Shown here piece by piece: positions 14,092 through 41,837 of a DNA stretch of 64,000 nt (its first letter is position 1; every line of letters starts with the position of its first letter). Origin of the DNA: a virus (lineage: Duplodnaviria; Caudoviricetes); the IMG/VR virus record IMGVR_UViG_3300025018_000138, positions 10,816 through 74,815 of that record. One strand, 5' to 3'. The notes under the pieces were generated by a model, which was not told where the DNA came from, did no database searches, and saw only the letters and a program-made list of their open reading frames with translations. The position numbers and the translations under genes are program-made.

Positions 14092-14206
14092 ATTAAAGCG
14101 CTTATCACGAATCTCACGACATGATGATAAGCTTTCCATAAGATACTGAATATGTTTTAATATACATATGTTTTATTCTAATGTCAATATATCAACGAAC
14201 TTTTTG

Positions 14207-14290
14207 AGGAAGATGTGGGATTTGAACCCACGGGACAAGATGCCCTTTAGTTTTCAGGACTAACGCAATAATCCACTCTGCCAATCTTCC
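14207..14290 (-). tRNA. tRNA-Ser(TGA), atypical C33 and U73
   Basis: TTAGT-CCTGAAA-ACTAA, long V arm, acceptor GGAAGAT/ATCTTCC. Confidence 0.75.
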
Positions 14291-21972: not shown

Positions 21973-22614
21973 ATGATACTAATCGAACAACAGATTGATT
22001 CACAATCATTAGCTATGTTACTAAAATGTCGAACTCAATTGATTAATTTAATTAATTCATTCAAACCTTATTGTAATAATTATTTTTATATTTATGGTGG
22101 GTTTATACGAGATTTAATATCTGGGTTTAAACCAGTTGATATTGATATTAATATTGCCGACAGTAATGATAAAAATCGTGTTATTAAGTACCTATCCAAA
22201 ACACATGATATTTCATATGAATCAGCTTGGGTAACTCGTTACAAGTCAAAAATGGGTTTACCAAAAACAATGTATGATATTGCATCCAATTTTAAAACAC
22301 CAACGGAATTTATATCAAATTCCGATTTTTCAAATAATGCTATATTATTTGATTCCAATTATGATTTGTTTTGTTTGGACTCGACTATATATGCAAATAC
22401 GAATAGAAAATTAATTTTAAAACCAATTGAATCTAATAGTCCTATGATTTTAGCATATAGAGCAGGTAAACTAATTCAAAAAGGGTTTGTATATAAATCC
22501 GAAAATCCTATAGACTTGATTAAAGATATAGAATATCAATTTGAACTATATACAAACCCAATCGATATTTATAAAGTTAATTTATCCATTAACGATAGAA
22601 ATGTATCACGTTGA
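21973..22614 (+). CDS. class II nucleotidyltransferase (poly(A) polymerase/CCA head domain only)
   Basis: YGGFIRD...DIDI and DFSNNAI motifs; 213 aa. Confidence 0.7.
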   Translation: MILIEQQIDSQSLAMLLKCRTQLINLINSFKPYCNNYFYIYGGFIRDLISGFKPVDIDINIADSNDKNRVIKYLSKTHDISYESAWVTRYKSKMGLPKTMYDIASNFKTPTEFISNSDFSNNAILFDSNYDLFCLDSTIYANTNRKLILKPIESNSPMILAYRAGKLIQKGFVYKSENPIDLIKDIEYQFELYTNPIDIYKVNLSINDRNVSR

Positions 22615-23624
22615 AAATTTCCAATTTCAGCACCTACTAATGTTTTAGGATAATCAACTCCTAATGCTTTGTACAACAATTGTACAATACTTACGAAAGA
22701 TTCATCCAATTTACATAACATGTTAACATTGTTCATAACAACTCGTCTATTTTTCCAAATAAATAATTTTGACTCGTTTATATCATCTACATAACTATCA
22801 ATCATAATATAGTTACCATAAAATTTAGATACTTGAGCAACTTCTTTTTTGATTGGTAATGAATCAATGAATGAATCATCAAACATACTAAATAAAAACG
22901 CAAATGAAGCATCAACATCATGGTCAATACACTCTTGAACTTCATCAATTCCCAACGATACGTCATCGATGAAACCTACATTATATAATAATACTTTTGG
23001 GATGAAATTAAATGTAGTAATACATTTAGCAAATTCATCCAAGATTCTTTCCATTGATAATACTTTATCCAATTTAACAGTATCAAGAATTTTTTCAATT
23101 GCCAATTTAGTACTTGCATCAAATGTCAAACCATATTTAACATAGAATCTAAAGGCTCTAATCACCCGTAAATAATCTTCTTCAAATCTGTGATACGGAT
23201 TACCAACAGTTTTTAAAATATTATTTTCCAAATCTGATTGTCCATCAAACCAATCTAATATTTTTGTTCCATCAAAACCCATCGCATTTATTGTAAAATC
23301 TCTACGTTGAGCATCTTCATAAAATGAATTGGTGAATTCTACTGTTGCACGTCTACCATCAGTACCCACATCTTTTCTAAATGTAGTATGTTCTACATGA
23401 ACCCCGTGAATTATAAATGTGACCGTTCCATGCTCTATACCAGTATCATATGATGAAAAAGGTAATAAATCTTTAATTTCCAATGGTGTATATGCTGATG
23501 CTACATCGATATCATGTGCTTCACGATTGAGTAACATATCCCTTACACAACCACCAACAGCAATTACTTCGGGTGCATATTGATGAATGGCATGTAAAAT
23601 TAATTCGATATTCGGGGTTGTCAT
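22569..23624 (-). CDS. cca: CCA-adding tRNA nucleotidyltransferase
   Basis: VGGCVRD, DIDV, RRDFTINAM, FEEDYLRVIRAFRF. Confidence 0.92.
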   Translation of the reverse strand: MTTPNIELILHAIHQYAPEVIAVGGCVRDMLLNREAHDIDVASAYTPLEIKDLLPFSSYDTGIEHGTVTFIIHGVHVEHTTFRKDVGTDGRRATVEFTNSFYEDAQRRDFTINAMGFDGTKILDWFDGQSDLENNILKTVGNPYHRFEEDYLRVIRAFRFYVKYGLTFDASTKLAIEKILDTVKLDKVLSMERILDEFAKCITTFNFIPKVLLYNVGFIDDVSLGIDEVQECIDHDVDASFAFLFSMFDDSFIDSLPIKKEVAQVSKFYGNYIMIDSYVDDINESKLFIWKNRRVVMNNVNMLCKLDESFVSIVQLLYKALGVDYPKTLVGAEIGNFQRDTFLSLMDKLTL

Positions 23625-23881: not shown

Positions 23882-24427
23882 TTAAAAGAATAGATACGTC
23901 TTCCATTCATCAGGTATCTCCCCCGAATAAGATTTCATTAACATTAACCAATGTGGTCTATAAGGTTGTGGAATAGGTCTACCCCATTCTTCATCAGTCA
24001 AACAATCTTTCTCATTATTGCATTTTTTACATGCAGTAACTAAATTGTCCCATGAATCTTTTCCACCCCTCGCTTTTGGTATAACATGGTCTAATGTTAA
24101 TTCTTTTCTATTTTTATCGAACCCACAATAAACACACGCATGGTTATCACGTTTCAAAATGTTATCACGATTTAATGGAACCGCTTTGTTATGAACATTA
24201 ACCCATTTATCGATTAATATAATTGAGGGTTTTTTGTATTGTAAATTGGGATTGATTGTTTTAAAAAACACATCATGTTCATATACTATACGTGCATTAC
24301 CTTTATACCAAATAGCAAAGGCACGTTCTGTTCGTATGATTTGCATAGGCATATATGCGGAATTAAGAACCAAACATTTATTGACCATTTCGGTTGAAGT
24401 GGTTAAGTTCTTTACATTAGTTACCAT
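23882..24427 (-). CDS. HNH endonuclease (McrA/HNH_5-like)
   Basis: RDNHACVYCG, LTLDHVIPKARGG, NLVTACKKCNNEK. Confidence 0.9.
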   Translation of the reverse strand: MVTNVKNLTTSTEMVNKCLVLNSAYMPMQIIRTERAFAIWYKGNARIVYEHDVFFKTINPNLQYKKPSIILIDKWVNVHNKAVPLNRDNILKRDNHACVYCGFDKNRKELTLDHVIPKARGGKDSWDNLVTACKKCNNEKDCLTDEEWGRPIPQPYRPHWLMLMKSYSGEIPDEWKTYLFF

Positions 24428-25741: not shown

Positions 25742-27415
25742 TTAAATAACAATCGCTTTAATATCGTTGAGTACTGCTTTTGGGTCAAACTCAACTTTTT
25801 TAATCAGTTCATAGATATCTTGTGTATATCCTTCGAGAGAAAACACACGTGGGTGTTTACTATTAAACATTTCTGTTGGATAACCACAAACATTTATACT
25901 ATAAACATAGGTATTACCATTCAGTTTTTCATATTCTTTAAAAGAATTTATTACCGAATCTTTACCTTGCATATCACTAATGATAAATACTCTATCATAT
26001 CGTCCTTTTAATGATGGAAAGATAGTATCAAACGCAGTACCATAACCAACAGACCCTTGTTTTGATGCAATTACTTTTTTAATAGTATTTACAGAATCCA
26101 AAGGATTTATATTAATAGGTTGAGTATAGTTTGCAAAATGATATACATCTGCATTTGTAGCTTTCGCTAAAGTTGATGCAACCAATGATGCTTTTTCGAT
26201 TGCTGATTTACTACCTTGTTTTTTATTTGCTAAAGTAATCAAACTTGTCATAGAACCTGAGCTATCTAATACTACAGCAGTTTTACCTGTGAAGTAATCT
26301 TCTAAATTTGGTATTGATAATTCATATGCTTTATTTAATGCAGTTAATATTGAACCTAAATCACTTGGGCTATGTTCTTGTAACAGAAACTCCAATGCCA
26401 AATCTATTTGGTGTGGAAACACTAATGATTTTTTGATAAATTCTGGTTCAATTAGTAAAGCAGATACTTTTTCTTTTAATGTACTATGTCCAAGTTTAAT
26501 GATATTGTTTAAGTTTCTTAACAATGCCAAGTACCCAATTTTTTTAGTATCAATTAGCTCTACAAAATTTTCACCCTTTAAATCATCCAATTCAACTTTA
26601 GCTTGCTCAACACTTAATTCACCTGATGCCACTTTTGCAGAAACATCTTGACCCGATTTGGTGTTTTTATCTTCAACAGTATTGAACTGTTTTAATAAAC
26701 CTAACGTTAATGCAAACAATGTTGGGATAGTTACTTCTCCATCATCACTAATATTTCTTGTTAGTTTATGTGCTTGTTCTTCATATAATACATGCCCTTT
26801 GACTGCTTTAAGTAATTTAGCTTTAGGTACAGATACTACTCCTTGAATTTCGGTTTCCCGTGGGTGTACTAACTTGACAATATTCAATAAAGAAATACTA
26901 GAAGTTTTCAATTGGTATTTAGCCAATTGGTATTTATCAGCATTTTCAATCACAGATTTGAATCCACGTTTGATAGCATTTGATAATTTCTTACCGTTAT
27001 TTAATGCCATATATGCACCTGCGATTTCCATCATATCATCTAAACGATATACAACTCCACCGCGATTTTCACCACGAACACGTTTAGTGAAGAAATGAGT
27101 TCCTAATTCGGTACCACTAAGATATCTAGCTAATACTGCTGATGCAAAATGTGTTGTTGCACGTTGTCCTACGACTGAACGTACATAAACAATTGCTTTG
27201 GCTACCAATTCTTTATCACCAATTTTATCAATTAATGATAATATTCGTGCTTCTCTTGTTTCACTTGTTTCATAAAATGTATTATCTACACCTGTAGCAA
27301 GAATTCCTACTAATTCTACGATTGGGTCTTTTGCAAAACCGTTTCCGTTTTCATATGTAGTTACATTTGGTTCTGCTTTAGTAGCAGATACTTGGTGTGA
27401 GTTATATTTTCCCAT
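25742..27415 (-). CDS. rsr: Ro60/TROVE-domain RNA-binding protein with vWA domain
   Basis: N-terminal ENGNGF, YLALLRNLNNI, FPHQ, MIDAS VLDSSGSMT, C-terminal vWA. Confidence 0.92.
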   Translation of the reverse strand: MGKYNSHQVSATKAEPNVTTYENGNGFAKDPIVELVGILATGVDNTFYETSETREARILSLIDKIGDKELVAKAIVYVRSVVGQRATTHFASAVLARYLSGTELGTHFFTKRVRGENRGGVVYRLDDMMEIAGAYMALNNGKKLSNAIKRGFKSVIENADKYQLAKYQLKTSSISLLNIVKLVHPRETEIQGVVSVPKAKLLKAVKGHVLYEEQAHKLTRNISDDGEVTIPTLFALTLGLLKQFNTVEDKNTKSGQDVSAKVASGELSVEQAKVELDDLKGENFVELIDTKKIGYLALLRNLNNIIKLGHSTLKEKVSALLIEPEFIKKSLVFPHQIDLALEFLLQEHSPSDLGSILTALNKAYELSIPNLEDYFTGKTAVVLDSSGSMTSLITLANKKQGSKSAIEKASLVASTLAKATNADVYHFANYTQPININPLDSVNTIKKVIASKQGSVGYGTAFDTIFPSLKGRYDRVFIISDMQGKDSVINSFKEYEKLNGNTYVYSINVCGYPTEMFNSKHPRVFSLEGYTQDIYELIKKVEFDPKAVLNDIKAIVI

Positions 27416-27580
27416 TGTTTGCTATCCTTTCGATATTATTAGTTGATTGGAAGAATTATAATGTTATAAAATGATGTTGAATATTATCAACATATTTGAG
27501 TTATTTGTTTAATATATTAAACAATTTCTAAAAAGTCAAATGATTGTCGTATTTTTACTATTTGAAAAAAAAATATTTTT

Positions 27581-27740
27581 GGAGAATTTTGTGTAACAGT
27601 TTTACAGGTTCATCCCTCTGCTTTTTTTTATAATGTATATTTATAATTTGATACCTTTGCGGTGTCTACAATTATAAACAGTTGATTTTTAATCATTGTT
27701 TTGTTTTTTGTTTTACGAAGTACCTGTTATACCGCTACCA
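27581..27740 (-). ncRNA. Y-RNA-like element 1 (no tRNA-like domain)
   Basis: shared 5' TAGC..TAACAG-GTACTTCG and 3' CTGTTA..TTCTCC ends. Confidence 0.6.
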
Positions 27741-27754
27741 AAAAAAAATAAAAT

Positions 27755-28873: not shown

Positions 28874-28886
28874 ATATAAAAATATA

Positions 28887-29010
28887 AAGAAATATCAAAA
28901 CAGAATTTTTAGCGCTCTACCATTGAGCTACATGTCCCCATAAGGGACATGGTTGGACTCGAACCAACAACCACTCGTTTCAATACGATGAAACTGTTTT
29001 TGTCACTATT
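28887..29010 (-). ncRNA. YrlA-type Y RNA (element 2; circularly permuted tRNA mimic)
   Basis: order T arm, then closed acceptor hairpin CATGTCCC/GGGACATG, then D arm GCTC-AATGGTA-GAGC, inside the outer AAACAG/CTGTTT stem. Confidence 0.85.
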
Positions 29011-29020
29011 ATATTTTTTG

Positions 29021-29101: not shown

Positions 29102-29174
29102 CGATGTTGATGGGATTCAAACCCACATAATCTTCGCTGACAACGAAGTGCATTAGTCATTATGCTACAACATC
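29102..29174 (-). tRNA. tRNA-Asp(GTC)
   Basis: CTTCG-TTGTCAG-CGAAG. Confidence 0.85.
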
Positions 29175-29810
29175 ATTATGTTCATGTTTTTCGTAGAATT
29201 TTATCCATTTTCTTATAGAATTATCTGAAACTCCATATTTTCTACCTGTAGCACTAAATCCTAATGATTTTGTGTCTTGTATTAATATTTCATATGGTGG
29301 TCTGTTTCTTTTTCTATCTTTTTTTAATATTTCAATATTTATTTTTTTTTCTTTGAATGGGTTATTATTTTCATAATCATTTAAATAATTTATTTTAAAT
29401 TTTTCTTCATTTACTCTAATTGCTGTTTTATTTTCAATATCAGATGTAGATAAGAAAAAAATACCACCGCTTTTTACTACAATAATAATATAATCTATTT
29501 TATTTTTATCAAAATATTTTCGTGTATTATTATATTTATTACCACCGCTAGTTGCAAGTGTTACTATCCAATTATTATTTTTATAAACACTTGTTGATTT
29601 GACTTGAACTTTTAGTAAGCAATTATCTTTTTCAATAATAAAATCATACGATTGATTTTCGTTTAATGGTTTAGATACTGTGTATCCTTCTTTTATTAAG
29701 AAAGCTAAAGCGTATGCTTCACCAACATTACCTTTATCTTTTTGGGTTTTACAATTTTCAAATATATTCATGATATTAATTATAATATATTTTATATTTT
29801 TGAACCCCAA
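29160..29810 (-). CDS. free-standing PD-(D/E)XK homing endonuclease (I-Ssp6803I/PDDEXK_5-like) with C-terminal HTH
   Basis: KGNVGE, YDFIIEKD, KVQVKS; C-terminal GRKYGVSDNSIRKW. Confidence 0.85.
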   Translation of the reverse strand: MGFKNIKYIIINIMNIFENCKTQKDKGNVGEAYALAFLIKEGYTVSKPLNENQSYDFIIEKDNCLLKVQVKSTSVYKNNNWIVTLATSGGNKYNNTRKYFDKNKIDYIIIVVKSGGIFFLSTSDIENKTAIRVNEEKFKINYLNDYENNNPFKEKKINIEILKKDRKRNRPPYEILIQDTKSLGFSATGRKYGVSDNSIRKWIKFYEKHEHNDVVA

Positions 29811-29832: not shown

Positions 29833-29919
29833 TGCGGTTCGAAAGATTCGAACTTTACGCCACCAACCCCACTTAGTTTTTGACAACAGTTTTACAGACT
29901 GCCGTGGGGAACGAACCGC
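29833..29919 (-). ncRNA. rearranged tRNA-like RNA, anticodon GTA (Tyr)
   Basis: acceptor GCGGTTC/GAACCGC, CCCCAC/GTGGGG stem enclosing GCAGT-CTGTAAA-ACTGT, TTGG loop, T arm TTCGAAT. Confidence 0.75.
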
Positions 29920-29929
29920 AAATAAAAAC

Positions 29930-30072
29930 AAAGAAATTTATAATCAGTTGACCAACATTTCAACCCCCGTACTAATACTAATTATATTAACATTAGTACG
30001 GGGGGCAGGAATTGAACCTACGTTATAGCAAAGCATGATTTTGTACGAAGTATCTGATTTATTACGCTATTG
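29930..30072 (-). ncRNA. YrlA-type Y RNA (element 3; extended 13-bp acceptor hairpin)
   Basis: AATCAG-ATACTTCG; T arm GTAGG-TTCAATT-CCTGC; CCCCCGTACTAAT hairpin; D-like TTGA/TCAA. Confidence 0.75.
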
Positions 30073-30078
30073 TTTTTG

Positions 30079-30150: not shown

Positions 30151-30162
30151 AAAGAATTAATC

Positions 30163-30238
30163 AAAGAAATTTTAAATGAGCGTGTTTGTAGATGTTATGT
30201 TGTAGATAATTTACGATGAAACTCATTAAGTGCTATTG
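30163..30238 (-). ncRNA. Y-RNA-like element 4 (minimal, 76 nt)
   Basis: TAGC..AATGAG-TTTCATCG ... CTCATT..TTTCTTT. Confidence 0.6.
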
Positions 30239-30246
30239 ATTAAGTG

Positions 30247-30321
30247 TACCCATAGATGGATTTGAACCATCGCATAACTGCGTATCAGACAGTTGCCTTA
30301 ACCAAGCTTGGCTATATGGGC
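30247..30321 (-). tRNA. tRNA-Ile(GAT)
   Basis: ACTGT-CTGATAC-GCAGT. Confidence 0.9.
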
Positions 30322-30334
30322 ATAATAAAATAAA

Positions 30335-30454
30335 AGGAGAAATATAAAAAGTGTGTTCCTCTTACGAGGTCGAGTGGAATTGAACCACTGAAGTTTATTT
30401 TCAAGATAAATGCCCAACCATTGAGCTACGATGTAACACTTTTAAACGCTACCT
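30335..30454 (-). ncRNA. Y-RNA-like element 5 containing a non-permuted tRNA body (anticodon TGA)
   Basis: AAAGTGT-TACATCG, then D arm, anticodon arm, T arm, GNRA hairpin, ACACTTT..TTTCTCC. Confidence 0.75.
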
Positions 30455-30460
30455 TTTTTG

Positions 30461-30533
30461 AGCTTTCATTGGGAATCGAACCCACTTCCTCGCTTTACAA
30501 GAGCGAACATCATCCAATAAATGTTTTGAAAGC
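30461..30533 (-). tRNA. tRNA-Thr(TGT)
   Basis: TCGCT-CTTGTAA-AGCGA. Confidence 0.85.
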
Positions 30534-30937
30534 TATTTTCTAGTTGTTCTAGAAGATTTTCTATTATTTATATTTTTGTACGTTTTGGTTAAAGAGTGAC
30601 AATTCGGACATAATAATCTTAGATTTTCTCGCAAATTATTTTTAGCATCTCCATCTATATGGTCAATCTCTAATGGTATATTACCCGTAAATTCATTTAT
30701 TTGTGACCAACCACATAATGAACATTTATTATCATTTTCTTCTAATAAAAATTTTCTTATCCAATTAGGAATGGTCAATCCATTACCACGTAGATAATTT
30801 TTACCATTTAACCACATATTAATACGTTGATTCATTTGAAATTCTTGTTGACATTTATTATTACAAAAAATGTTATTATTAACAATTTCATTATTACAAA
30901 ATTTACAAGTTTTTTCCTTTTTTTCTCTTTTTCTCAT
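30533..30937 (-). CDS. free-standing HNH homing endonuclease
   Basis: CSLCGW, LEIDHIDG, NLRLLCPNCHS; N-terminal Cys-rich zinc motif. Confidence 0.9.
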   Translation of the reverse strand: MRKREKKEKTCKFCNNEIVNNNIFCNNKCQQEFQMNQRINMWLNGKNYLRGNGLTIPNWIRKFLLEENDNKCSLCGWSQINEFTGNIPLEIDHIDGDAKNNLRENLRLLCPNCHSLTKTYKNINNRKSSRTTRK

Positions 30938-31903: not shown

Positions 31904-32770
31904 TTATAGTATTTTTTTATTAAAATCAAAAAAATCTTCAAAATTTTCAAAAATAATTTCTTTTTTAATATCATCATATACAATAAACTCAGTTGGATAC
32001 ATAAATAATGAAGTATCAGACATTATTAATGAAGGATTTAAATAATATGGTGAATGTAATGGGAGACCATGTATATTACTAGTATGCCCGAATATTTGTA
32101 TAATATTCTTATTTGTCGCAGTAGGAACAGTAATTTCTGATGGTCTCAGCCAAAAAATTCCTCCACACGATTTATATCCACCCGATATATATCCAATGTC
32201 AAATAACGATTTAACTTCCGAATTTCTATTACCACTTGATAATACATATAGATACATATCATTTGTTAATGGTTTTAATGTTTCATTAATATCATCGATA
32301 GTAATTTCTTCAAATGGTATATGTTTAGTATTAGGGAGTTGTTTAAATATATCCCCATCTAATCCTGCATGAGTACATAAAAGATTATCGATTGAATGAT
32401 AAAATTTTAAAATCTTTTTATCCATCATTTTTTCATAATATGGATAAAACGAAAATCCTGCACCTGCACTATACCCAGAACATTGAAATGGATTTTCCAC
32501 ATGTGGTTTAATCATATATTGTAAATCGTGATTACCGATTAGATATGTCATCTTTTCGGGTTCATATTCATACATCATAGTTTTTAATAACTCTTGTTGC
32601 TTTTTTCTACCAAACTCAGGGTTATGATTATTCCCCCAAGTCACTTGTCTATTATCTACATAATCGCCTAAAAATACTACTTTATAGTCATCAGTTGATT
32701 TTATAAATTTATTAACTTTGTTAAATAAATTTATATTACCGTGTAAATCACCAAATATTATATGTTTCAT
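31904..32770 (-). CDS. calcineurin-like metallophosphoesterase
   Basis: GDLHG, GDYVD, GNHD, THAG, FGHT. Confidence 0.9.
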   Translation of the reverse strand: MKHIIFGDLHGNINLFNKVNKFIKSTDDYKVVFLGDYVDNRQVTWGNNHNPEFGRKKQQELLKTMMYEYEPEKMTYLIGNHDLQYMIKPHVENPFQCSGYSAGAGFSFYPYYEKMMDKKILKFYHSIDNLLCTHAGLDGDIFKQLPNTKHIPFEEITIDDINETLKPLTNDMYLYVLSSGNRNSEVKSLFDIGYISGGYKSCGGIFWLRPSEITVPTATNKNIIQIFGHTSNIHGLPLHSPYYLNPSLIMSDTSLFMYPTEFIVYDDIKKEIIFENFEDFFDFNKKIL

Positions 32771-33309
32771 TATTTTTTACTTATATCAGTTTGATAGTAT
32801 ACTTTTCCGTGATGAAAAGTTTCTATATAGTCAATAGCTTTAAATATCAATAGTTTCCTTTCATCTTCGGTTGTTCGGGAAAACAATAATACCATATTAT
32901 CATATATGACAAATTTTTTCATGTAGTTATTAAGTTTACCCAATTTTCTGAGTAAATCTTCTTGTTTACTTACACGCATTCTATCCAATATTGCATACCG
33001 CATGTGTTCTTCAATCATCATCAATACATCACGTTTGATGTTAATTGGTATGAATTTTTTAGCATATTTTAATGATGCTTTTTCATGTCCAAATGCAGTA
33101 GGAGTTCCATCTTCCTTATATTTCAAAGTATCAATTTTACCAAAATCGTGAAATAATGCCGTGTACAATAGTTCATCGGGTTCATTATTTTCTAATGCTT
33201 GACCCAATACTAATAGAGTATGGGTTAATACATCACCTTCGGGATGATAATCCTTACGTTGGGGAGTATTCTGTAATTGTTTGAGTAAGTTTGTTAAGTC
33301 CATAATCAA
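32770..33309 (-). CDS. HD-domain phosphohydrolase (resembles HD domain of long CCA enzymes)
   Basis: HPEGDVLTHT, HDFGK, GHE, EHM. Confidence 0.85.
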   Translation of the reverse strand: MIMDLTNLLKQLQNTPQRKDYHPEGDVLTHTLLVLGQALENNEPDELLYTALFHDFGKIDTLKYKEDGTPTAFGHEKASLKYAKKFIPINIKRDVLMMIEEHMRYAILDRMRVSKQEDLLRKLGKLNNYMKKFVIYDNMVLLFSRTTEDERKLLIFKAIDYIETFHHGKVYYQTDISKK

Positions 33310-39239: not shown

Positions 39240-41837
39240 TTATTCTGTCTCAATATCTTCACCGATAATTTCTTCAATCGAAATTGAAGCATCGGTAGTA
39301 AGAATCAATCCTGCAATCGAAACTGCATTTAATAAAGCAGATTTTGTAATCTTAAATGGGTCAATAATACCCATCTCAAACATATCTCCATTAGTATTAT
39401 TTCTAACATCTAATCCCATGTTTACATTAGAATCCTCAGTGAATCGCTTTACAAATTCTCTAATATCATTTTTACTATAACCTGCATTTTCTAATATGGT
39501 CTCAAATGGTTTTTTTAATGAATAAAATAATATATCATATGCTAAATTTTTTTCTATTGATTTATTAATATATTTTGATGGAGAATATTCTGTTGATATT
39601 TTCAACAATGGAATCCCACCACCTGCTACAATACCATACTCAGTTGCAGATTTAGTAGCAAATAATGCATCTTCAATTCTATCCTTTTTCTCTTGTAATT
39701 CTACTTCAGAATTTGCACCAACTTTGATGATGGATACACCATTTGTAAAATTAGCATAACGTTCATTAATAGCATTTCTTTCAAACATTGATAATTTTGA
39801 GTCATTGATTAAAGATTCTAATAATTCTTTTCTATCATTGTATTCTTTAACTTTTGGAATACCACCGATGATAACAGAATTCTCTTTTTTACTTATAATT
39901 CGTTCAGCTTGACCTAAGTAGTCCATCGAAATATTTTTAATAGAATGTCCAAGTTCGGGAGTTATGAATGTAGCACCCGTAGATACTGCAATGTCCTTCA
40001 TAATCTCTTTTCTATTATCTCCAAATGATGCAGCTTTAATCAGACAAACTTTAATCACTCCACTTAATTTATTCTGAGCTAATACTCCTGCTACTTCCGC
40101 TTCAAAATCTTCAGCAATAATAACCAATGGTTTTCCTGATGATACTACACCTTCAAGCACAGGTAATAATTCTTTAGCAGTTGATAAAGTACCTGCATAT
40201 ACCATGACAAACGTGTTGTTTAATTCTGCTACCATTTTTTTCATGTCAGTAACAAAATAAGAAGAGAAATAACCTCTATCAATCTGCATACCCTCGACAT
40301 GTGACAAATAAGTTTCATCATTTTCTGAATCTTCAACTGATACATATCCACCGACACCAACCTTGGATATAGCTTTAGCAATGATAGAACCTAGAATGGT
40401 ATCTCCATTTGCAGAAATAGTTGCTACTTGACGTAGATGTTCTTCTGAATCAATATTTTTTTTCATTGATTCTAATTTTTCAACTACATCTACTGTTAGT
40501 AAATCCAATTCTCGTTTCAATTGAATTAAATTCATAGATTGGTTTGATGATTTAATTAACTCAAATGCTTTATGAAGAATTGCTTGTGTTAATACAGTTG
40601 CAGTAGTTGTATTGTGTGTTAAAATGAAATTATCAGTGAAATAAAGTTTATCGTTATTGCTGACTTTTATACAACGCATTGGAGTATATACATCAGTAGG
40701 AGTAATAGATACTATTTTGTTTCCATATTTATACCCTTTCAATTGTATAAATCTATGAATAGGATTATAGGAATAAGAATTGTCATCACTATCTCTTGTA
40801 TGAAATTTGAAATTTAAAGAAATGCCTAAACTATAACATAATACTTCAAAGTTTCTTGCTAACCTTCCACTTACGGTACTAAATACAAATCTACCTCGTT
40901 TATTTTTATAACCACCCATGTCAAGTAAACCTTGTAATAAATTTTCTCTTGTTGTATAATCATTATATAGATATTCATCTGGAATAAATTTAGTAAAACT
41001 ATTTACACCACGTAAATTAAGTTGTTCTAAAATTTCTGATAAGGATTTACCATATAATTTAACTCTAAAACTATTACTTTTTTCTACATGAGTTACATCT
41101 TTTCGTACACCTTCGGGTAGAATCAATTTGTCAATGATATGCTGCTTTTTAAAACCTAAAGATAACTCTATAGTTTCTCCACTTAAACTTCCATCGCCTA
41201 ATAGTACACCTAGTGTGTAAGGGTCTATGGGTACAGATTTCTGTGGAAAATTGACACCTTCTGATTGCACATAGTATCCATGTCTATTATTTTTCATTGT
41301 TATTCTACCAGAGTCTATTAAAGCACGTGTGGACATAGACTTCTTAGCACCATAATTAGTTATTACCGTCCATATATGAGTATCATCACAGTCGACCACT
41401 CTACCATCAGCAAATTTCACTTGATGTATTTGTAAATTACCTTTTTCATACACTTCTTCTACTGTTTGTACAGTATTATTAGTACCATTGATTAAATCAC
41501 CCTTTTTAATTTCAGCCATAGTAGTCCAACCATTTGGTGTGGAAATTTTAGACCAAAGTGGTTGACAACCGTCACCTGCATTATCGGCAGTTTTTTCAGC
41601 TACGGATTTGATTAAATCCGCACCCATATTTTCGATTGGGTCTTTAAGTATAATGTGTTTCGCAACAGTTACCCCATCTTTAGTAATTAGTGGTAGTTGC
41701 ATTTCTCGTTGAATGATAACATTCTTACCCGATGCACCAAGCGTTGATTTAACTGCATTAGCTAATTTGTCAACGCCTGATTTTAATTTATGACGAGTTT
41801 CTACATCGTATGATATATGTTTAATTATCTGTTTCAT
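39240..41837 (-). CDS. groEL: chaperonin GroEL (intein-containing; 546 aa after splicing)
   Basis: TKDGVTVAK, AGDG|TTTATVL, DRGYFS, KDRIEDALFAT, GIVAGGG, GIIDP. Confidence 0.95.
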   Translation of the reverse strand: MKQIIKHISYDVETRHKLKSGVDKLANAVKSTLGASGKNVIIQREMQLPLITKDGVTVAKHIILKDPIENMGADLIKSVAEKTADNAGDGCQPLWSKISTPNGWTTMAEIKKGDLINGTNNTVQTVEEVYEKGNLQIHQVKFADGRVVDCDDTHIWTVITNYGAKKSMSTRALIDSGRITMKNNRHGYYVQSEGVNFPQKSVPIDPYTLGVLLGDGSLSGETIELSLGFKKQHIIDKLILPEGVRKDVTHVEKSNSFRVKLYGKSLSEILEQLNLRGVNSFTKFIPDEYLYNDYTTRENLLQGLLDMGGYKNKRGRFVFSTVSGRLARNFEVLCYSLGISLNFKFHTRDSDDNSYSYNPIHRFIQLKGYKYGNKIVSITPTDVYTPMRCIKVSNNDKLYFTDNFILTHNTTTATVLTQAILHKAFELIKSSNQSMNLIQLKRELDLLTVDVVEKLESMKKNIDSEEHLRQVATISANGDTILGSIIAKAISKVGVGGYVSVEDSENDETYLSHVEGMQIDRGYFSSYFVTDMKKMVAELNNTFVMVYAGTLSTAKELLPVLEGVVSSGKPLVIIAEDFEAEVAGVLAQNKLSGVIKVCLIKAASFGDNRKEIMKDIAVSTGATFITPELGHSIKNISMDYLGQAERIISKKENSVIIGGIPKVKEYNDRKELLESLINDSKLSMFERNAINERYANFTNGVSIIKVGANSEVELQEKKDRIEDALFATKSATEYGIVAGGGIPLLKISTEYSPSKYINKSIEKNLAYDILFYSLKKPFETILENAGYSKNDIREFVKRFTEDSNVNMGLDVRNNTNGDMFEMGIIDPFKITKSALLNAVSIAGLILTTDASISIEEIIGEDIETE
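40611..41567 (-). mobile_element. intein (319 aa) with LAGLIDADG homing-endonuclease domain
   Basis: starts Cys (CQPL), ends THN before Thr; block B DDTHIW; LGVLLGDGS and LLQGLLDMGG. Confidence 0.93.

What the first reader, a model, noticed from the sequence alone, without database searches (positions are those of the whole stretch)
30335..30454. Y-RNA/tRNA chimera with non-permuted cloverleaf and real anticodon loop
In YrlA the Ro stem replaces the anticodon arm. Here it replaces the acceptor: TCG-TA, D arm GCTC/GGGC, TTTAT-CTTGAAA-ATAAA (UGA anticodon), T arm AGTGG/CCACT, CGA, then a CCTC-GTAA-GAGG hairpin. It cannot be aminoacylated but displays an anticodon, so it is a candidate decoy for anticodon nucleases or a ribosome A-site ligand.
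Basis: partly seen in the sequence, partly recalled or inferred. Interest (0 to 1): 0.8.

Follow-up and report, generated by a model that had tools for sequence, protein, structure and literature searches.

The report
Phage Y RNA with tRNA body
Between two tRNA genes of a large uncultured phage lies a small RNA gene that joins a conserved two-helix "handle", shared with a Y RNA next to the phage's Ro60 gene, to a complete tRNA look-alike with an anticodon arm; it belongs to a conserved family found almost only in Ro60-encoding phages, and I found no description of this family in the papers I searched.

Summary
On the minus strand at 30457..30332 lies a tRNA-shaped body with D, anticodon and T arms (Rfam tRNA 44.5 bits, model positions 5-66). 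It has no ordinary acceptor stem and sits inside a long terminal stem.

It is not a decaying tRNA. The same handle flanks four other RNAs upstream of the phage's Ro60 gene, one of which matches Rfam YrlA. Seventeen relatives in other phages keep the cloverleaf body with compensatory changes: 97.6% of cells are paired and no shuffle of 500 does as well. Of 14 contigs found through the RNA alone, 13 encode Ro60, against 0 of 10 controls.

The acceptor is not replaced. Three base pairs plus a 4-bp GNRA-capped hairpin, which covaries in at least 10 relatives, rebuild a closed 7-bp acceptor mimic. The handle enters between acceptor nucleotides 4 and 5.

The anticodon loop keeps its tRNA shape, but the triplet varies freely among relatives and U33 is sometimes lost. 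That argues against ribosomal decoding. The decoy idea remains untested.

Best reading: a Ro60-bound Y RNA whose effector module is a whole tRNA mimic. It is a new variant of a known kind. This scan has noted comparable handle-tagged tRNA-mimic arrays in other phages.

The parts
30452..30457 (-). Handle helix I, 5' strand (6 nt), pairs with 30337-30332
   Evidence: Sequence. Base-pair probability 0.63-1.0. The equivalent helix covaries in 19 minimal family members.
30447..30451 (-). Conserved 5' handle motif (UAGCG here, UAGUAA-like in relatives), lying opposite the 3' UUUCU
   Evidence: Alignments A1, A3 and A4. A strict 5' module pattern occurs 115 times on the Ro60 strand and 4 times on the other strand of the loci.
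30437..30443 (-). Handle helix II, 5' strand (7 nt), pairs with 30353-30347
   Evidence: Seven Watson-Crick pairs, pair probability 0.65-0.98. All 7 pairs show double changes in A3. It differs by two compensatory changes from the YrlA-type paralog at 28880-29016.
30429..30436 (-). Conserved 8-nt motif (UUACAUCG; UUACUUCG in most relatives). Its last 3 nt form helix III with CGA at 30372-30370 and correspond to acceptor positions 5-7.
   Evidence: Invariant or nearly invariant columns in A1, A3 and A4. UCG/CGA is paired in 17 of 17 rows.
30412..30426 (-). D arm (4-bp stem, 7-nt loop with GG), preceded by U8 A9 at 30428-30427
   Evidence: Rfam tRNA alignment. The stem is 100% paired in A4 and nearly invariant in sequence, matching the conserved D arm of the YrlA consensus.
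30394..30410 (-). Anticodon arm: 5-bp A-U stem and 7-nt loop CUUGAAA, with the triplet UGA at 30403-30401
   Evidence: Rfam alignment. All 5 stem pairs carry double changes across 17 relatives. Loop signature: Y32 in 17/17, U33 in 13/17, R37 in 16/17, while the triplet varies (and my reading).
30373..30389 (-). T arm (5-bp stem, loop UUCAAUU), preceded by the 4-nt variable loop 30393-30390
   Evidence: Rfam alignment, pair probability 0.87-1.0. Four of 5 pairs have double changes and 98.8% of cells are paired.
30370..30372 (-). CGA, 3' strand of helix III (acceptor positions 66-68)
   Evidence: CGA in 16 of 17 rows of A4 and CGG in one; paired in all 17.
30358..30369 (-). 4-bp hairpin with a GUAA (GNRA) tetraloop. 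It completes a closed 7-bp acceptor mimic (positions 69-72 paired with 1-4).
   Evidence: Pair probability about 1.0. A hairpin of 4-6 bp, mostly with a GNRA loop and with different stem sequences, follows CGA in at least 10 of 17 relatives.
30347..30353 (-). Handle helix II, 3' strand, preceded by the A-rich linker 30357-30354
   Evidence: As for 30437-30443.
30338..30342 (-). Conserved 3' handle motif UUUCU
   Evidence: Invariant UUC core in A3. Pairs with the AG of the 5' motif (19 of 19 G-C at one pair).
30332..30337 (-). Handle helix I, 3' strand. A U-rich tail runs from here to the 5' end of tRNA-Ile at 30321.
25742..27415 (-). Ro60 (TROVE) homologue, 557 aa: the presumed protein partner, 2.9 kb downstream on the same strand
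   Evidence: Pfam TROVE 31.6 bits against a cut-off of 23. PHROG 850 'RNA-binding protein'. Best solved relative is Thermus phage phiLo Ro60, 9KOP/9L5Y, E 1.5e-19.

Best explanation
The element is a functional small RNA of the Y-RNA kind, one of five paralogs transcribed with the tRNA array upstream of the phage's Ro60 gene.

Shown: its 5' and 3' ends form a bipartite handle made of helix I, a conserved UAG.../UUUCU internal region, a 7-bp helix II and an 8-nt motif. This handle is shared by all five paralogs and by more than 100 RNAs in related phages. Between the handle strands sits a conserved tRNA-shaped body with a D arm, a 5-bp/7-nt anticodon arm, a short variable loop and a T arm.

Inferred from sequence: UCG/CGA plus the GNRA-capped hairpin stack on the T stem as a closed 7-bp acceptor mimic. 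The RNA would then fold into a full L-shaped tRNA look-alike, with the handle branching out of the acceptor stem between nucleotides 4 and 5.

Inferred from the family's genomic association and from what is known of Ro60/Y RNPs: the handle binds the outer surface of the phage Ro60 ring. The tRNA mimic is the effector module that brings Ro60, and through it probably a host exoribonuclease such as PNPase, to something that recognises tRNA shape. The nearly invariant D-stem sequence shared with YrlA points to a common, still unknown tRNA-elbow or D-stem reader. The free variation of the anticodon triplet suggests that arm geometry rather than codon reading is selected.
For: tRNA-like body: Rfam tRNA 44.5 bits over model positions 5-66.

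Shared handle: the RNA at 28894-29000 matches Rfam YrlA over the full model (43.3 bits, E 6e-9). It carries the same 5' and 3' modules, with two compensatory changes in helix II.

Handle structure: in 19 minimal members 88% of cells are paired, 14 of 17 pairs show double changes, and 0 of 500 shuffles reach this. The strict 5' module occurs 115 times on the Ro60 strand and 4 times on the opposite strand.

Body structure: 13 acceptor-less members are 95.9% paired with 11 of 15 pairs compensatory. In the element's own 17-member subfamily 97.6% of cells are paired, anticodon-stem pairs covary 5 of 5 and T-stem pairs 4 of 5, and 0 of 500 shuffles do as well. The covariance model scores the window element 85.2 bits, E 2e-12. 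That is by construction, since the element was in the training set. Ordinary tRNAs score 33-45 bits.

Hairpin: it recurs with different stem sequences and GNRA loops.

Link to Ro60: 13 of 14 contigs found by the RNA pattern plus the model encode a Ro60 homologue, against 0 of 10 contigs that matched the pattern by chance. By hand, Fisher's exact test gives about 6e-6.

Not a recent tRNA copy: no close paralog exists among the 25 tRNAs of the window.

Literature: Y RNAs lie upstream of Ro60 on the same strand and carry tRNA-like effector modules (PMC4201824; 10.1101/312249). A phage Ro60 binds phage Y-like RNAs and host PNPase (PMC12135203).
Against: The handle lacks the GNCGAA (CGAA) motif that defines the Ro60-binding strand of YrlA and of the phiLo Yrl RNAs. 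Rfam YrlA does not match this element. Ro60 binding is therefore extrapolated to a divergent protein-RNA pair. In one complete 306-kb phage the element and the Ro60 gene lie 34 kb apart. Seven of 17 subfamily members lack the hairpin, so a closed acceptor is not essential to the class. In relatives the same handle also flanks complete, ARAGORN-callable tRNAs, which would equally fit a processing role for the handle. Nearest-neighbour folding gives the anticodon stem only about 0.2 and helix III about 0.01 probability.
Confidence: 0.6

Rival explanations
1. The handle is a Ro60-independent processing or stability cassette of the phage tRNA operon. A leader-trailer stem would mark or protect embedded RNAs, for example as a nuclease entry or stop site. 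The cloverleaf body would then be an accessory tRNA-like RNA whose partner is not Ro60.
For: All five window copies are interleaved with tRNAs and abut tRNA ends. In relatives the same handle encloses full tRNAs with 7-bp acceptors, often followed by an encoded CCA, which RNase P and 3' trimming would release. The canonical CGAA Ro60-binding motif is absent. In one complete phage the element is 34 kb from the Ro60 gene.
Against: Ro60 co-occurrence is 13 of 14 against 0 of 10. Minimal handle-only RNAs with no cargo sit directly upstream of the Ro60 gene in many loci. One handle RNA matches Rfam YrlA end to end, including the stem. A conserved internal-loop sequence flanked by covarying helices is the usual look of a protein-binding site.
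Confidence: 0.15
2. Within the Ro60-bound reading, the displayed anticodon arm is the business end. It would be a decoy or a sensor for host anticodon nucleases or other anticodon-loop readers, and loop cleavage or binding would sequester the toxin or switch the Ro60 particle.
For: Arm geometry (5 bp plus 7 nt) and the loop signature Y32/R37 are kept across 17 relatives while the triplet diversifies (UGA, UGU, GAA, UUG, GCA, CUU and others), as might be expected if different hosts wield different nucleases. The neighbourhood holds a CCA-adding enzyme, an HD protein and a metallophosphoesterase beside a 25-tRNA array. A Ro60-like phage protein has been reported to counter a defence system (PMC11482910).
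Against: No toxin, cleavage or binding data exist. The triplets seen do not concentrate on the textbook nuclease targets (my own knowledge: Lys-UUU for PrrC, Arg for colicin D, the GUN set for colicin E5). Free drift of an unconstrained triplet explains the same variation. The defence system countered in PMC11482910 is proposed to degrade DNA, not tRNA. No RNA ligase was seen among the 18 window ORFs I scanned against PHROGs.
Confidence: 0.13
3. It is a circularly permuted or split tRNA gene that matures into a working tRNA. RNase P and 3' trimming would open the GNRA loop, CCA would be added by the phage enzyme, and the handle would hold or later release the two pieces, giving a chargeable tRNA that reads UCN.
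For: The composite acceptor is exactly 7 bp in the window and in several relatives. M. smegmatis YrlA, with a 7-bp closed acceptor, is cleaved by RNase P and receives CCA in vivo (PMC4201824). The phage encodes a CCA-adding enzyme. Permuted tRNA genes are discussed as a parallel in 10.1101/312249.
Against: Seven of 17 relatives have no hairpin at all, and others have 5-6 bp stems or a spacer nucleotide. U33 is replaced in 4 of 17. A UGA anticodon on a body with a 4-nt variable loop lacks the long arm of bacterial tRNA-Ser (my knowledge). A canonical tRNA-Ser(UGA) is already present at 14206-14290. The three-way junction inside the acceptor stem would disturb RNase P and synthetase recognition.
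Confidence: 0.06
4. It is a decaying tRNA pseudogene that lost its acceptor stem, and the outer stem and hairpin are chance complementarity.
For: ARAGORN rejects it at default settings. The folding z-score is only -1.35. The array contains homing-endonuclease ORFs (HNH at 30533-30937, PD-(D/E)XK at 29160-29810) that could disrupt genes.
Against: The acceptor-less architecture, handle and hairpin are conserved with compensatory changes in many divergent phages. The 8-nt motif and CGA are invariant. There is no close tRNA paralog. The class shows strand-specific recurrence and association with Ro60.
Confidence: 0.03

Closest known systems
YrlA-type bacterial and phage Y RNAs (Rfam RF02553; Chen et al. 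2014, PMC4201824; Wang et al. 2018, 10.1101/312249)
   Same: Encoded upstream of Ro60 on the same strand. The terminal stem is formed by the 5' and 3' ends. The effector module mimics tRNA with D and T arms and a loop-closed acceptor. The D-arm sequence is nearly identical to the YrlA consensus. A true YrlA-type paralog with the same handle lies 1.4 kb away.
   Different: In YrlA the order is T arm, acceptor, D arm, and the Ro60 stem stands where the anticodon arm would be, so there is no anticodon loop. Here the order is D, anticodon, T, a full anticodon arm is present, and the handle enters the acceptor stem. The GNCGAA motif is absent, and the Rfam model does not match this element.
Deinococcus radiodurans Yrn1 (Chen et al. 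2014, PMC4201824)
   Same: As that paper models it, the stem-loop between the D-like and T arms occupies the anticodon-arm position (5-bp stem), and the Ro60-binding stem lies on the acceptor side. This is the same orientation as here.
   Different: Yrn1 has no full D arm, a 6-nt loop and no variable region, and no dihydrouridine was detected in its D-like loop. Here all arms are canonical, with a 7-nt loop. There is no detectable sequence relationship, and the handles differ.
Mycobacterium smegmatis YrlA (Chen et al. 2014)
   Same: A 7-bp loop-closed acceptor mimic on a Ro60-bound RNA. It shows that such a loop can be opened by RNase P and given CCA while the halves stay bound.
   Different: It has the permuted YrlA order and no anticodon arm. 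Here the 7 bp are split 3+4 by a three-way junction. Processing was not tested here.
Thermus phage phiLo Ro60 with Yrl1 and Yrl2 (PMC12135203; PDB 9KOP, 9L5Y)
   Same: A phage-encoded Ro60, the closest solved relative of the window protein (E 1.5e-19), with phage-encoded Y-like RNAs upstream. These bind it and form a complex with host PNPase.
   Different: The Yrl RNAs are stem-bulge-stem hairpins with a CGAA motif and no tRNA body. The proteins are only about 24% identical.
Ordinary tRNA and circularly permuted tRNA genes
   Same: Cloverleaf arms, U8, A14, GG in the D loop, a UUCRA T loop, and Y32-U33 and R37 in the window copy. With the hairpin counted, the gene is a permutation of a tRNA.
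   Different: There is no free acceptor end. The break is inside the acceptor 5' strand rather than at a splice-type junction. No splicing-type processing signals are known in phages (my knowledge).

Membership tests
YrlA (Rfam RF02553) Y RNA | Encoded close to a Ro60/TROVE gene, same strand | tested here: met
   Element at 30457-30332 and Ro60 gene at 27415-25742, both on the minus strand. Family-wide, 13 of 14 contigs encode Ro60 against 0 of 10 controls.
YrlA (Rfam RF02553) Y RNA | Long stem formed by pairing of the RNA's 5' and 3' ends | tested here: met
   Helices I and II are present, are probable in the ensemble and covary in the family.
YrlA (Rfam RF02553) Y RNA | GNCGAAN0-1G motif on the 5' strand of the Ro60-binding stem (PMC4201824) | tested here: not met
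   The 5' strand reads helix II followed by UUACAUCG. There is no CGAA in this element or in the family consensus.
YrlA (Rfam RF02553) Y RNA | tRNA-like module in the order T arm, closed acceptor, D arm, with the Ro60 stem at the anticodon position | tested here: not met
   The order here is D, anticodon, T, closed acceptor.
YrlA (Rfam RF02553) Y RNA | Match to the Rfam covariance model at gathering score (69 bits) | tested here: not met
   No YrlA match at E up to 10 on 30325-30462. The paralog at 28894-29000 scores 43.3 bits.
YrlA (Rfam RF02553) Y RNA | Bound and stabilised by Ro60 | not testable with these tools
   Needs a pull-down or gel shift.
Y RNA in the broad sense (Ro60-associated modular RNA: terminal protein-binding stem plus effector module) | Modular architecture plus genomic coupling to Ro60 | tested here: met
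   Binding itself is untested.
tRNA (Rfam RF00005) | D, anticodon and T arms with conserved loop nucleotides; score above the gathering threshold | tested here: met
   44.5 bits against a gathering score of 29, as a local match to positions 5-66.
tRNA (Rfam RF00005) | 7-bp acceptor stem formed by the 5' end and the 3' end, with a free 3' end for CCA and an amino acid | tested here: not met
   Only 3 bp are formed with the 5' side. The remaining 4 bp are a loop-closed hairpin. ARAGORN at default makes no call.
tRNA (Rfam RF00005) | Anticodon conserved among orthologs, U33 universal | tested here: not met
   Triplets differ among the 17 relatives, and U33 is present in 13 of 17.
Yrn1-type Y RNA (D. 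radiodurans) | Ro60 stem on the acceptor side, stem-loop at the anticodon position | tested here: met
   Topology, compared with the description in PMC4201824.
Yrn1-type Y RNA (D. radiodurans) | Sequence or profile homology to Yrn1 | not tested
   No Yrn1 sequence was at hand. No Rfam family other than tRNA matched convincingly.

The most novel reading that the evidence does not exclude
Phage Ro60 particles carry interchangeable whole-tRNA mimics on a common handle and use the displayed anticodon arm in the phage-host conflict over tRNAs. The arm would act as bait or sensor for host anticodon-loop nucleases or modifiers, so that attack on the bait sequesters the toxin or releases or activates Ro60 with a host exonuclease. 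This would give Y RNA tRNA-mimicry its first concrete function.
Probability: 0.13. Interest if true: 0.85.

Novelty: new variant of a known kind. Interest (0 to 1): 0.62.

Why it matters
Why bacterial Y RNAs mimic tRNA has been open since 2014, and the known mimics lack the anticodon arm. This family, with dozens of members in the Ro60-encoding phage contigs examined here, attaches the Ro60-type handle to a whole cloverleaf. The same handle also carries permuted mimics, T-arm minihelices, bare loops and complete tRNAs. That gives a natural series of cargo swaps on one handle, with clear covariation. It allows direct tests of what the tRNA module recruits and whether Ro60 particles act in tRNA surveillance or in countering tRNA-directed defence. 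It also warns annotators that some "tRNAs" and "pseudo-tRNAs" in phage arrays next to TROVE genes are Y-type RNAs, a guess voiced for phage Bas63 in PMC11482910.

Tried and rejected
- nhmmer with the 120-nt element against the 67 Ro60 loci gave only marginal hits. Homologs had to be found by motif, cloverleaf parsing and a covariance model.
- DNA similarity search against the public phage collection found only the neighbouring HNH gene.
- My first loose motif-plus-stem scan was unspecific: the motif was equally common on both strands, and shuffled 7-mers passed in 24 of 229 cases. I replaced it with a strict module pattern and alignments.
- The covariance model found nothing within 12-15 kb of the Ro60 genes of Vibrio phage pv27 or the 635-kb uncultured phage LR745206. 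The family was therefore not traced to a cultured phage.
- I compared each element's triplet with the tRNAs called in the same locus. This was uninformative because the loci are partial, the tRNA sets are large, and ARAGORN sometimes calls the element itself.
- I looked for conservation of the 15:48 tertiary pair by eye in A4 and saw no consistent pattern.
- The genome-collection pattern scan returned mostly chance matches. Only five loci (six matches) passed the model, and none had a Ro60 match within the 8 kb fetched.
- Two reviews on bacterial Y RNAs could not be read because they are not held.

Full report
CONTEXT. The window is part of a 74.8-kb IMG/VR phage contig estimated at about 36% complete, with about 28% G+C. 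Between 12 and 33 kb nearly everything is on the minus strand. ARAGORN tRNAs. The same block holds a 557-aa Ro60/TROVE protein at 25742-27415: Pfam TROVE scores 31.6 bits, and the best solved relative is the Ro60 of Thermus phage phiLo, E 1.5e-19. It also holds a CCA-adding enzyme (22569-23624), an HD protein (32770-33309), a metallophosphoesterase (31904-32770) and two endonuclease ORFs.

THE OBSERVATION. The finding lies between tRNA-Thr, which ends at 30460, and tRNA-Ile, which starts at 30321. Rfam's tRNA model matches 30431..30370 at 44.5 bits but only over model positions 5-66. ARAGORN rejects the element at default settings and at a relaxed threshold draws a tRNA-Ser(tga) with a broken acceptor. 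Thermodynamics alone does not single it out: the z-score is -1.35. Helices I and II, the D and T stems and the hairpin have pair probabilities of 0.9 or more over most of their pairs. The all-A-U anticodon stem reaches about 0.2, and the 3-bp UCG/CGA helix reaches 0.01.

PARALOGS IN THE WINDOW. Rfam YrlA matches 28894-29000 end to end (43.3 bits, E 6e-9, below the gathering score of 69). That RNA is a classic permuted mimic with a T arm, a closed acceptor and a D arm. It and the finding share the same ends:
- on the 5' side, UAG-type motif, 7-bp helix, then an 8-nt motif ending in UCG-UA;
- on the 3' side, the complementary 7-mer, about six bases, then UUUCU, then a further helix.

The 7-bp helices of the two RNAs differ by two compensatory changes. 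Three more RNAs carry the same handle: 30159-30241, 29927-30074 and 27576-27746.

THE FAMILY. I fetched 67 loci around homologues of the Ro60 protein, 43-52% identical. A strict 5'-module pattern occurs 115 times on the Ro60 strand and 4 times on the other strand. Nineteen cargo-less members align cleanly. The bipartite handle is 88% paired, all seven helix-II pairs show double changes, and 0 of 500 shuffles do as well. The cargoes fall into several types:
- bare loops, often directly upstream of the Ro60 gene;
- YrlA-type permuted mimics;
- T-arm/acceptor minihelices;
- complete tRNAs with 7-bp acceptors that ARAGORN calls;
- acceptor-less cloverleaves like the finding.

Thirteen acceptor-less members, including the window copy, are 95.9% paired, with 11 of 15 pairs compensatory. 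A covariance model built from them scores its members 80-111 bits (window 85.2), full-acceptor forms 44-54 bits and ordinary tRNAs 33-45 bits.

THE ELEMENT'S OWN SUBFAMILY. Two DNA-pattern scans of the viral collection followed by the model recovered relatives in which the 8-nt motif runs straight into UA plus the D arm and the T arm is followed by CGA. In the 17-sequence alignment:
- 97.6% of cells are paired;
- all five anticodon-stem pairs and four of five T-stem pairs carry double changes;
- 0 of 500 shuffles match this;
- the D stem, UCG and CGA are essentially invariant.

At least ten of the 17 have a 4-6 bp hairpin, mostly capped by GNRA, right after CGA, and its stem sequences differ between phages.

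From sequence, UCG/CGA supplies acceptor pairs 5-7 with 66-68. The hairpin supplies 69-72 with 1-4. Together they give a closed 7-bp acceptor mimic that could stack on the T stem, with the handle leaving between nucleotides 4 and 5. The RNA therefore keeps the native arm order but is, strictly, a tRNA permuted within its acceptor strand. Seven members lack the hairpin, so it is a frequent option and not a requirement.

THE ANTICODON LOOP. All parsed members keep a 5-bp stem and a 7-nt loop, with Y32 in 17 of 17 and R37 in 16 of 17. U33 is present in 13 of 17. The triplets are diverse: UGA twice, UGU, GAA twice, UUG three times, GCA four times, and AUU, GUU, GAU, CAA and CAC once each. The window's UGA is therefore not a conserved identity. 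The two relatives first recovered with the same hairpin architecture show UGU and GAA. The body has a 4-nt variable loop, unlike bacterial tRNA-Ser, and a canonical tRNA-Ser(UGA) exists at 14206-14290. No window tRNA is a close paralog.

LINK TO Ro60. Fourteen contigs were reached purely through the RNA, by pattern plus model. Thirteen of them encode a homologue of the window Ro60, and the exception is an 11%-complete fragment. Ten large contigs matched the 16-nt pattern by chance but had no model hit; none of these encodes one. By hand, Fisher's exact test gives about 6e-6. Distances vary, from immediately adjacent to 34 kb apart in a complete 306-kb phage.

COMPARISON WITH WHAT IS KNOWN. YrlA RNAs mimic the D arm, T arm and closed acceptor, with the Ro60 stem in place of the anticodon arm, and "lack the anticodon loop" (PMC4201824; 10.1101/312249). 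D. radiodurans Yrn1 was modelled in the opposite orientation, with a 5-bp/6-nt "anticodon arm" but no full D arm (PMC4201824). That is the nearest precedent for this topology. M. smegmatis YrlA, with a 7-bp closed acceptor, is cut by RNase P and receives CCA. The phiLo phage Ro60 binds two phage Y-like RNAs through a CGAA-containing bulge and joins host PNPase (PMC12135203). The PhageMaP preprint guesses that some annotated tRNAs next to the Ro60-like gene of phage Bas63 are Y RNAs, and reports that this protein counters the Ppl defence (PMC11482910). I found no paper describing a Y-type RNA with a complete cloverleaf including the anticodon arm. The handle here lacks the CGAA motif, so it is a distinct handle for a divergent Ro60. 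Other agents of this scan have noted comparable handle-tagged tRNA-mimic arrays beside Ro60-like genes in other phages. I did not test those.

MECHANISM. Shown: a conserved, strand-specific, structured RNA with a bipartite handle and a cloverleaf body, genomically coupled to Ro60. Inferred: the handle binds the phage Ro60. The body folds as an L-shaped tRNA mimic with a closed acceptor. It then tethers the Ro60 particle, and possibly host PNPase, to a factor that reads tRNA shape. The D-stem sequence shared with YrlA hints at a common reader. Selection on arm geometry combined with a free triplet and partial loss of U33 argues against ribosomal decoding. It leaves a decoy or sensor role for anticodon-loop enzymes possible but unsupported.

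HOST. The model also hits short contigs binned to Saprospiraceae MAGs and one 3.2-Mb Ferruginibacter contig. This is a weak hint that the hosts are Bacteroidota.

VERDICT. This is a new variant of the Y-RNA/tRNA-mimic kind, with good comparative support and no experimental data.

Noticed in passing
window 28880-29016 (-): YrlA-type permuted tRNA mimic (T arm, closed 7-bp acceptor, D arm) with the same handle. Rfam YrlA scores 43.3 bits over the full model, below the gathering score.
   Followed up: partly
window 30159-30241 (-), 29927-30074 (-), 27576-27746 (-): Three further handle RNAs. One has a bare 33-nt loop between tRNA-Ile and tRNA-Gly. One has a T arm followed by a 19-bp hairpin. One has a long A/U-rich insert just upstream of the Ro60 gene.
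   Followed up: partly
window 29833-29919 (-): Odd tRNA-like gene with an 8-bp acceptor, a T arm and a GUA anticodon loop, but with no normal D arm (a CCCCAC/GUGGGG helix encloses the anticodon hairpin instead). ARAGORN at default and Rfam miss it, and no other tRNA-Tyr is called in the window.
   Followed up: no
L033:7913-7992, L015:3347-3422, L026:7909-7983: In related phages the same handle encloses complete tRNAs that ARAGORN calls, some with stop-reading anticodons: UUA in L033, where the close relative L026 has UUG, and UCA in L015. Several are followed by an encoded CCA, unlike the ordinary tRNAs of the window.
   Followed up: partly
L032:8025-8135, L068:16841-16951, L026:18261-18364, L003:5170-5274, L015:3838-3940: Another cargo type on the same handle: a short acceptor-like helix plus T arm, followed by C-CCA, resembling a tRNA top-half minihelix.
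   Followed up: no
window 30533-30937 (-) and 29160-29810 (-); also 23882-24427 (-): HNH and PD-(D/E)XK endonuclease ORFs are interspersed in the tRNA/Y-RNA array. They are probably homing endonucleases. The HNH ORF is the only part of the region with DNA similarity to cultured phages.
   Followed up: no
window 22569-23624 (-), 32770-33309 (-), 31904-32770 (-): A CCA-adding enzyme head domain, a separate HD-domain protein and a metallophosphoesterase flank the array, suggesting a tRNA-end repair set. No RNA ligase was seen among the ORFs I scanned.
   Followed up: partly
window 39240-41837 (-): An 865-aa ORF whose C-terminal half matches a phage GroEL-type chaperonin family strongly (E 5e-128). 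Its N-terminal 350 residues match P-loop terminase/helicase-type families. This is an unusual fusion if the ORF is real.
   Followed up: no
L222, L184, L219, L209 (Saprospiraceae MAG contigs) and L203 (Ferruginibacter, 3.2-Mb contig): Covariance-model hits to handle-cloverleaf RNAs with a variant 5' motif (GGUGAUAC type). They hint at Bacteroidota hosts and possibly a chromosomal or prophage copy. No Ro60 match was found within the 8 kb fetched.
   Followed up: partly
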